Both the position numbers and the translations under genes were made by a program. A DNA stretch of 64,000 bases from contig OY986949.1 in assembly GCA_963920595.1 (NCBI GenBank), positions 186,001-250,000 of the forward strand, given 5' to 3'. This DNA comes from Eimeria praecox (taxonomy: Eukaryota). Below the pieces are notes generated by a model that had not been told where the DNA came from, searched no databases, and saw only the letters and a program-made list of their open reading frames with translations. This document shows positions 1-38,814 of this stretch, one piece after another. Position 1 is the stretch's first letter. Every line of letters starts with the position of its first letter.

Positions 1-3000
1 CTTATTTTTTGCTTCCGAATAGCTACACAATGTGTTACTGGCTACGCCTTCTTTCGTGCAAGCGTCGTGCTGCTTTACACAATCTGTCAAGGTCGTGTCG
101 TCTGCCTTGGCCAGCCTTTCGCTGTTCCCGTCTTTCCGCAGAACAAATGCCACCATGCATAACCGGCGTCATCATAAACCCTCAGGAAGGCATGATACAA
201 AGGATCGAGCAGTCACTCCCTCCTCCTACTACGTTCTGCACTGCATATCTACTGAAATGCCTCGCCAATCCGATAAAATCGTTTGTAATGCCAGACTCTG
301 GTTCGGATGTCCCGTCTAGCAAGTGCGTTTCGCAGCGCCGAAAGATGCTGCCCGCAATGACACAACAGAAGAGCATAGCTAAAGCAACACGAACTCCCGC
401 TTCATTTCACACTGCAAATGCGGAGCTCTGCAGGCGTTCACACATGCATCCATGCACACAGCCGGCGAAATTAAAACACAAACGTACGCATAACTGCGCC
501 CAAAACAGTGGATTGGTTTCCGGTGCGTCAGGCGCCCGACAAACGTTCCTAGTTACTTCACGCTTCGTAACTCAAAACGTCCGGCAACTAATTGTGTCCA
601 TACTCTCTGGCCAAATCAGCGGGTAAACGCACCGTTAGAGGGCTTCGCCACATCGCGTCCGCATACTCGCGCACACAAACTGCAAAAGCCCCCCATGCTC
701 ACATACGCAGGTTCCGAAGTTCTACGCGATAAAATGCTGCATATAATCCAAACACCAGATAACGCTCATCTCAAGCACGGCAGATGAACCTGACCCTAGT
801 CTGAACGCAATTGCAGAACGATACGCCAAGCAGCATAGAGGCTAACTGCCATATCATGTTATTTGCAAGAGCAGAGAAAATCGACATTTTTCAAAACAAT
901 GAAGATATATCACGCAAGTGAACTTAGCTGCGTCGAATAATTTTTGCCTCTTGTGAGGATGCAAGCTTGCCACGGAGATCCTGCCGAAACATGGCTAGTT
1001 GAAAAGCCTATCAGCGACACATTCATACACACCACTTTCTCCAAAACGCAAAGCAGCTTAACTAATTAGACCAAACCAGAAATGCCCGCCTGCACTACAA
1101 GGTCCGCTTGCGTTTGCCGTTTGCTACAACAGAATGAGCCCCATATTACAAGTTGTTCCATGCAATTCCCATGAGTGTAGACACAATTCGCGTTCTCCGC
1201 GCGTCCGGGCTCAGCCGGACCTTGGCTATTAGCGCTCTCAGCAGAACAGCTACCAATAATACACAATCAGGCCAACGTCCATTCTCACGCAACTAAACCC
1301 ACAAATAAACGCGTAGGCGAAACACTCTGAAACGCAAACGCACCCATAACTGCGTCGAGAAAAAGATGCTGCCGCTGTTTTAGGCGTTCTACAAACTGAT
1401 CTAGATGCTATGCGCTCCGCATTTCCAAGCACCTGGCAGTTAATTATGTGCATACCTCCTGGGTAGAGCAGCGTTTGACCTGAAGGCCAGAGCAGGATTA
1501 GCCATACCGCGCCCGTAAACGCTCGCACACAGATTGCAAAACCGCAAGGTGCTCCTACACGCTGGTGCCTTAAATCTCATCCAACAGCTATGGGTGCTCT
1601 TACCTAAGCGAGCTGATTTCGAACATACAAAACGAAAACGGGGATGGCGTAGAAACAGCAAAACAATGCACATGGCTGTACGTGGCACCTTTGTCGAGTA
1701 TTGTCGAGTTATTATCCGTCGGAAAAACACTGAAAATATGGAACGTTCAGTGTGGAGGAAGTTGCGTGGTAACTGTACCCATGAATAATAGTTACGTGGT
1801 GAATCGCATAACAATTGTAGATGCACGAATAATAACTATGTTATAAACAAATGCGCCAATCGCACATAACGCCTACAACGCGCTTTCCTCCTTCTCCTTC
1901 AATAAATATGGATGCGTGCCACGAATACCTTGGCGTGGCAAAGCTAGCTCGAAAGAATATCTGCCAAACAAGCAGAATATGCACCTACTCCGAACACCAA
2001 AAAGATTATTAGCTATTGCTGCGAAACGAAGAACGCCCGCCTGCACGAGTTATGGTCTCTTCTGTCTTGCGAAATAGCAGTACGATGATCGACGGGCAAC
2101 GCAATCTCCGTGAAAACGTCGTCGGCCTTTACAGAATGTGTGTTGGCGGCGCCGTCAGTCTCGGCACGTCCTTCGCTACTATCGTTCTTTACAGAGCAAC
2201 TACCCTAACGCATACCCCGGCCAACCTTCAGTGCTACTAAACGTTTGCCACAAATTTCCGCGCGTAGGCGCTACACCCTGCAGCGTACTGCGCTGCAAAT
2301 ATACTGCCCCACCAATTCACTGAAATCGCTGGAGTGTCCGACCTTATCTTGCAAAGGTGTTTCGCAGCGCCGAAACCTCCTGCCCCAGGGTATACCGTGC
2401 ATGAATTGGCCTCCAGCCAACGGCCTCCAAGGTCTATCACACGCTTCATGTATTCACACAGACTTCTCTGGCTAGCATCAACCTGCCTCAAACGTAACAG
2501 CACCCATAAACACGCTGAGCAGACGACTGCTCTTCTAAGATCATACTTCCTGGGAAGAAGAACAAGCTGCCGTAAGGGCTGAGAAGGCTTCCGCACACAG
2601 TGCTCGTAGACATGTGCACAAATTGCGCAACCCCACGATGCTCACATGTGCAGGACCGCCTGTGCTTTTTAAAGACACCGTACACTCCGACCAGCAGACG
2701 ACGCTCATTACAACCAAGGCAGCCGAACCAAGCAAGCAACCCTACTACCAAGTGCAAACCAAGGCGCCTGCCTGCATGCGGCGTCCTCGTCGATTCGATG
2801 CATGATACAGTGTCAACAACAATCGAAAACGCTCAATATGCACAAGGTATACGACGCATGCGGGCTACAGTGCACTCTATCGCAACCGATTTCCACGATT
2901 ACGCAAATGCTTCACGAATACTCCCCCGCAATACGGCTAGCAACAAGAAATGTCAGTAACATATTCACAAATTGCGCCTGCTCCGCAGACACATCAGCAT

Positions 3001-37993: not shown

Positions 37994-38814
37994 CGACATG
38001 CAGTACGAATTGCGACTACACAATGTGTTACTGGCTACGTCTTCTTTCGCGCAAGTTTCGTGCTGGTTTACACAATCTGTTAAGGTCATGTCGTCTGCCT
38101 TGGCCAGCCTTTCGCTGTTCCCGTCTTTCCGCAGAACAAATGCCACCATGCATAACCGCCTTCATCATAAACCCTCCTGAAAGCATGATACAGAGGACCG
38201 CGCAGTCACTCCCTCCTCCTACTACGTTCTGCACTGTACATCTACTGTAATGCCACGCCAATCCGCTAAAATCGTTTGTAATGCCAAACGCTGGTTCGGG
38301 TGTCCCGTCTAGCAAGTGCGTTTCGCAGCGCCGAAAGATGCTGCCCGGAATGACACCACAGAAGAGCACAGCTAAAGCAGCACGAACTCCCGCTTCATAT
38401 CATACTGCAAATGCGGAGCTCTGCACGCGTTCACACATGCATCCATGCATACAGCCGGGGAAATTAAAACACAAACGTACGCATAACTGCGCCAAAAACA
38501 GTGGATTGGTTTCCGGTGCGTCAGGCGCCCAACAAACGTTCCTAGTTACTTCACGCTTCGTAACTCAAAACGTCCGGCAACTAATTGTGTCCATACGCTC
38601 TGGCCAAATCAGCGGGTAACCGCAGCACTAGAGGGCTTCACCGCATCCCCTCCGCAGAGGCGCACACACAAGCTGCAAAGGCCCACCATGCTCTCATACG
38701 CAGGGTCCGAAGTTCTACGCGATACAATGCTGCGTATAATCCAACCAGCAGATGAGACTCATCTCAAGCACGGCACATGATCCTGACCCTAGCCTGAAAG
38801 CAATTGCAGAACGA
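37994..38814. repeat. Terminal partial unit G (M1 only, more diverged)
   Basis: Matches 1-820 with extra substitutions and a ~22 bp deletion in the anchor (gaattgcgactacacaatg). Confidence 0.88.

What the first reader, a model, noticed from the sequence alone, without database searches (positions are those of the whole stretch)
1..38814. The 7 kb repeat is a cryptic higher-order repeat of six or seven ancient ~1 kb monomers
Seen: one motif recurs within unit A as cacaaactgcaaaagccccccatgctc (674), cacagattgcaaaaccgcaaggtgctc (1528), cacaaattgcgcaaccccacgatgctc (2617), cacaagctgcccaaccccacaaagttc (3671), cacaggctgcataaccccaccatgctc (4649) and catcaactgccttaccccatgatgctc (6874), then again at 7871. 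Spacings are 854, 1089, 1054, 978, 2225 (including the ~1.1 kb TA block) and 997. A second anchor (ctac.acg....gc.ctgca...cacca.ttca) follows the same register at ~226, 2271, 3232, 4292 and 5312. Monomers differ greatly from each other while whole units are nearly identical. Established: this two-tier pattern defines HORs such as primate alpha satellite, whose monomer is only 171 bp. Inference: this is a kilobase-monomer HOR, which I do not know to be described in apicomplexans.
Basis: partly seen in the sequence, partly recalled or inferred. Interest (0 to 1): 0.85.

Follow-up and report, generated by a model that had tools for sequence, protein, structure and literature searches.

The report
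Kilobase higher-order satellite in Eimeria
A stretch of parasite DNA is a repeat within a repeat: old, heavily mutated 1-kilobase units were recently copied again in blocks of six or seven, likely by unequal crossing-over and likely without coding for anything, which makes it a real but probably functionless example of a known repeat architecture.

Summary
Window 1-38814 is a head-to-tail array of ~1.0-1.1 kb monomers that are 51-62% identical between types and 92-100% identical within a type; the tree groups them by position. 'Six or seven' is both: a 7-monomer unit (A'-H-B-C-D-E-F/G, 8.1 kb) and a derived 6-monomer unit (7.1-7.2 kb) whose first monomer is an A'/H chimera with a crossover inside a 39-base tract. 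The TATATG block is an insertion into one monomer, not a spacer. The unit is present in runs of independent studies, so it is not an assembly artefact. Divergence looks neutral: no codon periodicity, near-uniform site rates, no Pfam or Rfam match, no recoverable ancestral reading frame. The host is likely an Eimeria species. Kilobase-monomer higher-order repeats are already known (NBPF, ~1.6 kb); my ten literature searches found none described in apicomplexans. No function is shown; a centromeric role is possible but untested.

The parts
3..1090 (+). Monomer A of unit 1: chimera of A' (5' part) and H (3' part)
   Evidence: 193 of 195 diagnostic sites left of the break match A', 105 of 106 right of it match H; sliding identity
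641..680 (+). Crossover tract between A' and H that turns the 7-mer into the 6-mer; same place in units at 7838-7877, 25053-25092, 38634-38673
1091..2035 (+).
2040..3030 (+). Monomer C
3031..4055 (+). Monomer D
4060..5068 (+). Monomer E
5070..5337 (+). 5' quarter (F) of the interrupted monomer F/G
   Evidence: profile positions 3-259
5338..6466 (.). TA-rich block with a (TATATG)n core, inserted in monomer F/G; 936-1129 bases in the five units
6467..7180 (+). 3' three quarters (G) of monomer F/G
   Evidence: profile positions 259-1051
7185..14177 (+). Unit 2: 6-mer A-B-C-D-E-F/G
14182..16322 (+). 2.1 kb doubly deleted unit: A' 5' part, H 3' part, B 5' part, G 3' end
16323..24394 (+). Complete 7-mer A'-H-B-C-D-E-F/G (8.1 kb)
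24400..31497 (+). 6-mer A-B-C-D-E-F/G
31502..38000 (+). 7-mer with a ~1.5 kb deletion joining B position 170 to C position 682
38016..38814 (+). Truncated chimeric A; right end of the amplified array
   Evidence: the junction is bridged by a 681-base contig with 3 differences in run X2
40340..45888 (+). Six further monomers outside the amplified unit (n1-n6), each a type of its own; n6 is broken by a (CA)n(TA)n microsatellite at 45593-45788
   Evidence: n2-n5 are 49-56% identical to the unit's types
46770..47690 (+). More decayed monomer n7
51690..54208 (+). More decayed monomers n8 and n9 and a last fragment at 54027-54208
   Evidence: reversed-sequence control gave no hit at E up to 10

Best explanation
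The region is a two-tier tandem repeat of ~1 kb monomers, likely non-coding satellite DNA that decayed neutrally and was then re-amplified in blocks by unequal crossing-over. Steps: (1, inferred) one ~1.05 kb sequence expanded into a head-to-tail array in a short burst; (2, shown as pattern) homogenisation stopped and each copy drifted to about 55-74% identity with the majority sequence at near-uniform rates across sites; (3, shown) one monomer gained a ~1 kb TA-rich microsatellite block; (4, inferred) once neighbours were too different to pair, a duplication of seven adjacent monomers made a new 8.1 kb unit that could pair only with its own copies and was amplified; (5, shown as product, mechanism inferred) an in-register crossover between A' and H inside a 39-base tract removed one monomer length and gave the 7.2 kb 6-mer, which was amplified too; further deletions gave 6.5 kb and 2.1 kb variants. 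No function is needed to explain it.
For: Two-tier identity and clustering by position; star-like deep tree, internal branches 12.9% of tree length, gamma shape 16.4 over 917 columns of 15 monomer types; period-3 power of matches 0.91 +/- 0.04 over 461 blocks against 13.6 for the two reverse-transcriptase remnants in the same window; gaps of a multiple of three are 230 of 1138; a simulated decayed single-exon reading frame with similar substitution and indel load is recovered with 0-2 frame shifts in 6 of 6 runs, the real majority sequence needs 5-7; no Pfam family at its cut-off in six-frame read-throughs of the monomer regions while the same method finds RT and RNase H at 62.4-63.5 kb; no Rfam family or tRNA; sharp chimera breakpoint shared by 4 of 4 A copies; unit present in runs of at least two studies of the same organism and, at low depth, a second organism.
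Against: Weak hints of structure remain: the minus strand of the majority sequence avoids stops somewhat better than shuffles (5 shifts against 8.3, P 0.037; P about 0.02 in 3 of 5 alignments, 0.14-0.16 in 2); windows of 20 and 40 columns are slightly more conserved than permutations (P 0.04); substitutions between copies are skewed by phase in 2 of 8 types (H 28/14/13, A' 28/17/13). The gamma estimate had no positive control. Neutral sequence divergence does not exclude a sequence-independent chromatin role. Only one 64 kb window was seen; the left end of the array and the rest of the genome were not available.
Confidence: 0.7

Rival explanations
1. The array is the centromere, or pericentromeric heterochromatin, of this chromosome: a young homogeneous block flanked by older monomeric layers and retroelement debris, held by chromatin function rather than by sequence.
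For: No Pfam-recognisable host gene in the frames scanned across the window; putative E. tenella centromeres lie in intergenic regions of 15-74 kb and one lies next to a repeat (passages of PMC8515493); layered layout of amplified unit, diverged monomers and retroelement remnants; sibling monomers exist on other contigs.
Against: No conserved box stands out (8- and 12-column windows P 0.30 and 0.23); the E. tenella report does not describe satellite centromeres for the other chromosomes; units are irregular and 0-8% diverged; no chromatin or Hi-C data were available.
Confidence: 0.13
2. The monomers are dead copies of a tandem gene family or of a repeated exon-intron module (as sag clusters in Eimeria, Tpr in Theileria or NBPF in humans) that lost function before most of the divergence accumulated.
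For: Tandem gene arrays are common in these parasites (passages of PMC4199364, PMC8092015, PMC10730637); mild stop avoidance on the minus strand; a profile of one minus-strand frame found four unnamed short gene calls that are homologous, one of 209 residues.
Against: No codon periodicity, no frame-preserving gaps, uniform rates; no invariant residue in either candidate frame over 15 monomers; no solved structure matched at E below 0.8; the 209-residue call runs across a monomer junction and through at least three frames of the majority sequence, has no Pfam match and a low recognition value, 924, as expected of a chance open frame; about 1 kb leaves little room for a multi-exon gene plus spacer (inference).
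Confidence: 0.09
3. The monomer is a tandemised piece of a mobile element (an LTR or a non-autonomous element of the Eimeria chromovirus group).
For: Degraded Gypsy-type elements are the main mobile DNA of Eimeria (passages of PMC4199364 and PMC9141347) and two remnants lie 8 kb from the last monomer; a burst-like star tree fits.
Against: The monomer profile does not hit near the retroelement remnants; all hits are on one strand, head to tail; no internal direct or inverted sub-repeat in five profile parts; no RT, integrase or gag match in monomers.
Confidence: 0.06
4. The 7 kb repetition is an assembly artefact.
For: No listed contig spans a whole unit; two copies of D are 100% identical and two of B 99.7%.
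Against: Copies differ mostly by substitutions with a transition excess and few gaps; thousands of variant contigs at high summed depth in three runs; the array's right junction is bridged in run X2. The monomer-level similarity cannot come from misassembly.
Confidence: 0.02

Closest known systems
Primate alpha-satellite higher-order repeats
   Same: Head-to-tail monomers, many-fold larger divergence between monomer types than between units, variants that lose a whole number of monomers, diverged monomeric flank (definition from passages of PMC5737470; the monomeric flank of alpha satellite is recalled)
   Different: Monomer ~1.05 kb against 171 bp; divergence between types 38-49% against 20-35%; unit divergence up to 8% against under ~5%; irregular unit lengths; no conserved box found; no centromeric evidence
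NBPF / Olduvai 3-mer higher-order repeat (human chromosome 1)
   Same: Kilobase monomers (~1.6 kb) in a multi-kilobase unit (~4.77 kb) (passage of PMC5737470; search listing and outline of PMC9584774)
   Different: NBPF units lie in a gene family and diverge ~20% between monomers and ~0.5% between units; here no coding signal, six or seven monomers and much deeper divergence
Tribolium castaneum complex higher-order repeats
   Same: Non-primate, units with extraneous insertions and deleted monomers, monomers up to ~720 bp (passages of PMC5737470)
   Different: There the long-monomer cases are 'weak' (little divergence between monomers); here types differ by 38-49%
Toxoplasma tandem non-coding repeats (Sat350/Sat680, 529-bp repeat, TgTARE1-3)
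   Same: Non-coding tandem arrays in a coccidian, in gene-poor DNA, variable in copy number (passages of PMC4008256 and PMC8092015)
   Different: Units of 250-680 bp; no multi-monomer second tier described in the passages read; no sequence comparison was possible
Theileria parva Tpr locus and Eimeria sag clusters
   Same: Tandem arrays of kilobase-scale units in apicomplexans (passages of PMC10730637 and PMC4199364)
   Different: These keep open reading frames; the monomers here show none

Membership tests
Higher-order repeat (general) | Homologous monomers arranged head to tail | tested here: met
   All profile hits on one strand, consecutive; 15 of 15 pairs above all shuffles
Higher-order repeat (general) | Divergence between monomer types far above divergence between units; clustering by position | tested here: met
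   51-62% between the seven types, 92-100% within full-length copies of a type, support 1.000 per type
Higher-order repeat (general) | The multi-monomer unit is itself tandemly repeated | tested here: met
   Five full or near-full units and two partial ones in 1-38814
Regular (alpha-satellite-like) higher-order repeat | Unit length varies by about 2%, unit divergence under about 5%, no extraneous insert | tested here: not met
   Units of 7.0-7.2, 8.1, 6.5 and 2.1 kb; up to 8% divergence; microsatellite insert; criteria
Centromeric satellite | CenH3 occupancy or centromeric Hi-C contacts | not testable with these tools
   No chromatin data; no whole genome held
Centromeric satellite | Conserved protein-binding box within the monomer | tested here: inconclusive
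   No short window above permutation (P 0.30, 0.23); 20- and 40-column windows marginal (P 0.04)
Tandem gene family or its pseudogenes (sag, Tpr, NBPF type) | Codon-structured divergence or a recoverable reading frame | tested here: not met
   a multi-exon ancestor that died early is not excluded
Tandem gene family or its pseudogenes (sag, Tpr, NBPF type) | Match to a known protein family or structure | tested here: not met
   Pfam; PDB profile searches in two of six frames only
LTR-element-derived tandem array | Homology to element ends, or dispersed copies with target-site duplications | tested here: inconclusive
   No hit near the remnants in this window; the rest of the genome could not be searched

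The most novel reading that the evidence does not exclude
This is a satellite-type centromere in an apicomplexan: a family of ~1 kb monomers spread over several loci or Eimeria species, with a locus-specific 6/7-monomer higher-order unit expanding inside older monomeric layers, as alpha satellite does in primates.
Probability: 0.13. Interest if true: 0.75.

Novelty: new member of a known kind. Interest (0 to 1): 0.38.

Why it matters
It is a clean worked example of how a higher-order repeat is born: the old monomeric layer, the 7-monomer unit, and the exact crossover that produced the 6-monomer unit all lie in one window. It points to an old ~1 kb repeat family in Eimeria that simple repeat finders miss (Tandem Repeats Finder, longest period 500, reported only microsatellites here) and that yields spurious gene calls. 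Its high copy number could make it a sensitive species marker. If it marked the centromere it would change the view that coccidian centromeres are non-repetitive, but nothing here shows that.

Tried and rejected
Whole-genome search: no genome held. The anchors read as an apparent peptide motif on either strand, which suggested a kinase loop or a cysteine-rich surface protein; over 15 monomers no residue was invariant and profile searches of solved structures gave only E 0.86 and 0.82; four of six frames were not searched as profiles. A 234-residue open frame in the array and the 123-residue frame at 56520-56888 found no relative in the large protein set; the latter gave one weak, uninformative metagenome locus. 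Pfam hits at E 0.006-0.9 in the flank were below their cut-offs and were discounted. Of six hits of the representative search, two (P0011, P0016) are long repetitive proteins and were dropped as chance. Compositional period-3 test on the majority sequence was flat (0.97) but its positive controls reached only 1.3-1.6, so it is weak. No internal sub-repeat in the monomer. No match among plasmids. No RNA holder was listed, which says nothing on expression. Earlier findings of the scan: nothing in four look-ups. A search for the 0.7 kb Plasmodium TARE-3 unit, which I recall, gave no passage that I read, so it is not used as evidence. Supplements were not read; the table of Toxoplasma tandem repeats with period above 500 bp (PMC8092015, Table S8) and the 31 repeat regions annotated in E. 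tenella (PMC8515493) may bear on the claim that nothing similar is described.

Full report
Observation. The six motifs and their spacing are exactly as reported and the second anchor is in place. Single monomers align to the other monomers over hundreds of bases. In a local-alignment test, 15 of 15 pairs among the six monomers of unit 1 scored 120-516, above every one of 40 dinucleotide shuffles per pair (maxima 63-84; z 11-51), while 30 control scores with five non-monomer pieces of the window were 32-74.

Anatomy. A profile of about 1050 positions tiles window 1-38946 head to tail on one strand. Unit 1 holds six monomers, A, B, C, D, E and F/G; F and G are positions 3-259 and 259-1051 of one monomer split by a TA-rich block with a (TATATG)n core, 936-1129 bases long in the five units. 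B has lost about 230 positions, which explains the short 854-base spacing and the missing second anchor. Two further types, A' and H, occur at 16.3-18.4 kb and 31.5-33.6 kb. In an alignment of 40 monomers the seven types A', H, B, C, D, E, F/G are 51-62% identical to each other, full-length copies of one type are 92-100% identical, and each type is a clade with support 1.000. The order is 6-mer, 6-mer, a 2.1 kb doubly deleted unit, a complete 8.1 kb 7-mer, 6-mer, a 7-mer with a 1.5 kb deletion, and a truncated A ending at 38814.

Six or seven. Monomer A is a chimera: of 310 sites that tell A' from H, the copy in unit 1 matches A' at 193 and H at 2 left of a break at 641-680, and H at 105 and A' at 1 right of it; the other three A copies break at the same tract. 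The 6-mer thus derives from the 7-mer by loss of exactly one monomer length, in register, inside a tract where A' and H have no fixed difference. That product is shown; unequal crossing-over as its cause is inferred from established repeat biology.

Monomers of the same family, each a type of its own, continue at 40.3-45.9 kb (six), 46.8-47.7 kb and 51.7-53.6 kb, with a last fragment at 54.0-54.2 kb; a reversed-sequence control gave no hit. They are no closer to the unit's types than these are to each other, so the amplified unit is a segment of an older, longer array. A profile search with one translated frame found four unnamed gene calls from ENA assemblies that match the majority sequence at E 1e-8 to 1e-26 but the window's monomers at only 24-58% amino-acid identity; one runs across a monomer junction in head-to-tail order. 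So sibling monomers occur in tandem at other loci or in other species; which, I could not see.

Reality and host. Four runs from three studies hold the unit, three with half or more of its words. Thousands of variant contigs cover all 30 bins in three runs. Summed contig depth over the array end is roughly ten to twenty times that over the adjacent flank in runs X1-X3; the tool warns that this is no copy number, but it suggests more units than the window shows, and the window starts inside the array. A 681-base contig of run X2 bridges the junction at 38814. The host is likely Eimeria: the named best relatives of the retroelement remnant at 63.0-63.3 kb are from E. brunetti (76%) and E. necatrix (73%), 2 named of 10 hits.

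Coding or not. Matches between 15 monomer types show period-3 power 0.91 +/- 0.04 over 461 ungapped blocks, against 13.6 for the two reverse-transcriptase remnants of the same window; 230 of 1138 short gaps are multiples of three; the gamma shape is 16.4 and internal branches are 12.9% of the tree. A simulated single-exon frame decayed to a similar degree is recovered with 0-2 frame shifts in 6 of 6 runs, whereas the real majority sequence needs 5-7 and its longest open stretch is 101 codons (P 0.66 against shuffles). Six-frame Pfam scans of unit 1, of A'-H and of 38.8-64 kb found only the RT and RNase H remnants above cut-off; the other units, being copies, were not scanned. Rfam and tRNA scans were empty. 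Against this reading: mild stop avoidance on the minus strand (P 0.037), marginal conserved windows (P 0.04) and phase skew in 2 of 8 types. With several tests run these are weak, but an early-dying multi-exon ancestor is not excluded.

Mechanism. The simplest account is neutral satellite turnover in two rounds: a burst that made a ~1.05 kb tandem array, long decay, then duplication and amplification of a seven-monomer block, with the 6-mer and the deletion variants as later products. The patterns are shown; the order of events and unequal exchange are inferred.

Comparison with what is known. By the definition in PMC5737470 (passages) this is a higher-order repeat of the complex kind, not a regular one. 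Kilobase monomers are known from NBPF (listing and outline of PMC9584774). In coccidia, non-coding tandem repeats of 250-680 bp are described for Toxoplasma (passages of PMC4008256 and PMC8092015). The passages I read of Eimeria genome papers treat simple repeats, retroelements and sag clusters and mention no such array (PMC4199364, PMC8515493, PMC11912684, PMC9141347, PMC4287421); the last calls the organisation and origin of complex Eimeria repeats an open area. Searches for a prior description found none, within open-licence papers and without supplements. Putative E. tenella centromeres are intergenic regions of 15-74 kb, one next to a repeat, which leaves a centromeric role open at low odds.

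Verdict. Real, correctly seen, and richer than reported, but an instance of a known architecture with no function shown. New member of a known kind; interest 0.38.

Noticed in passing
window 62386-62733 (-) and about 62700-63590 (+): Two degraded, divergently oriented and slightly overlapping Ty3/gypsy-type reverse-transcriptase remnants, 64% identical over 340 bases with clear codon periodicity; nearest named relatives are Eimeria retroelements.
   Followed up: partly
window 55788-56906 (-): Broken gene-like region: an open frame with a hydrophobic stretch followed by an arginine-rich motif of the kind I recall from Eimeria-specific secreted families; no relative found.
   Followed up: partly
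window 45880-46770 and 50344-51190; 39373-39759 and 51256-51616: Non-monomer spacers are themselves old duplicates (E 1e-37 and 4e-17), and monomers n1 and n8 pair up, pointing to an older block duplication in the flank.
   Followed up: partly
window 39000-45500: The flank has near-copies elsewhere in the same organism: contigs with about 8% differences lie beside exact ones in run X2, and a joint that skips 1995 bases (41938 to 43934, about two monomers) is seen in three runs, though on only 24 letters of support.
   Followed up: no
window 54624-54822 and 54899-55076: A ~275-base direct duplication (73-81% identical), each copy with a short 21-base tandem repeat.
   Followed up: no
window 49753-49889: An imperfect inverted repeat of about 137 bases, arms 94% alike over 62 bases.
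   Followed up: no
window 1-45260: Monomers carry a steady strand skew (GC skew -0.11 to -0.16, AT skew +0.09 to +0.12), stronger in AT skew than the non-monomer DNA (about 0.03).
   Followed up: no
window 5338-6466 and 45593-45788: Two monomers independently gained TA-rich microsatellites in the 5' half (profile positions about 259 and 321-442).
   Followed up: no
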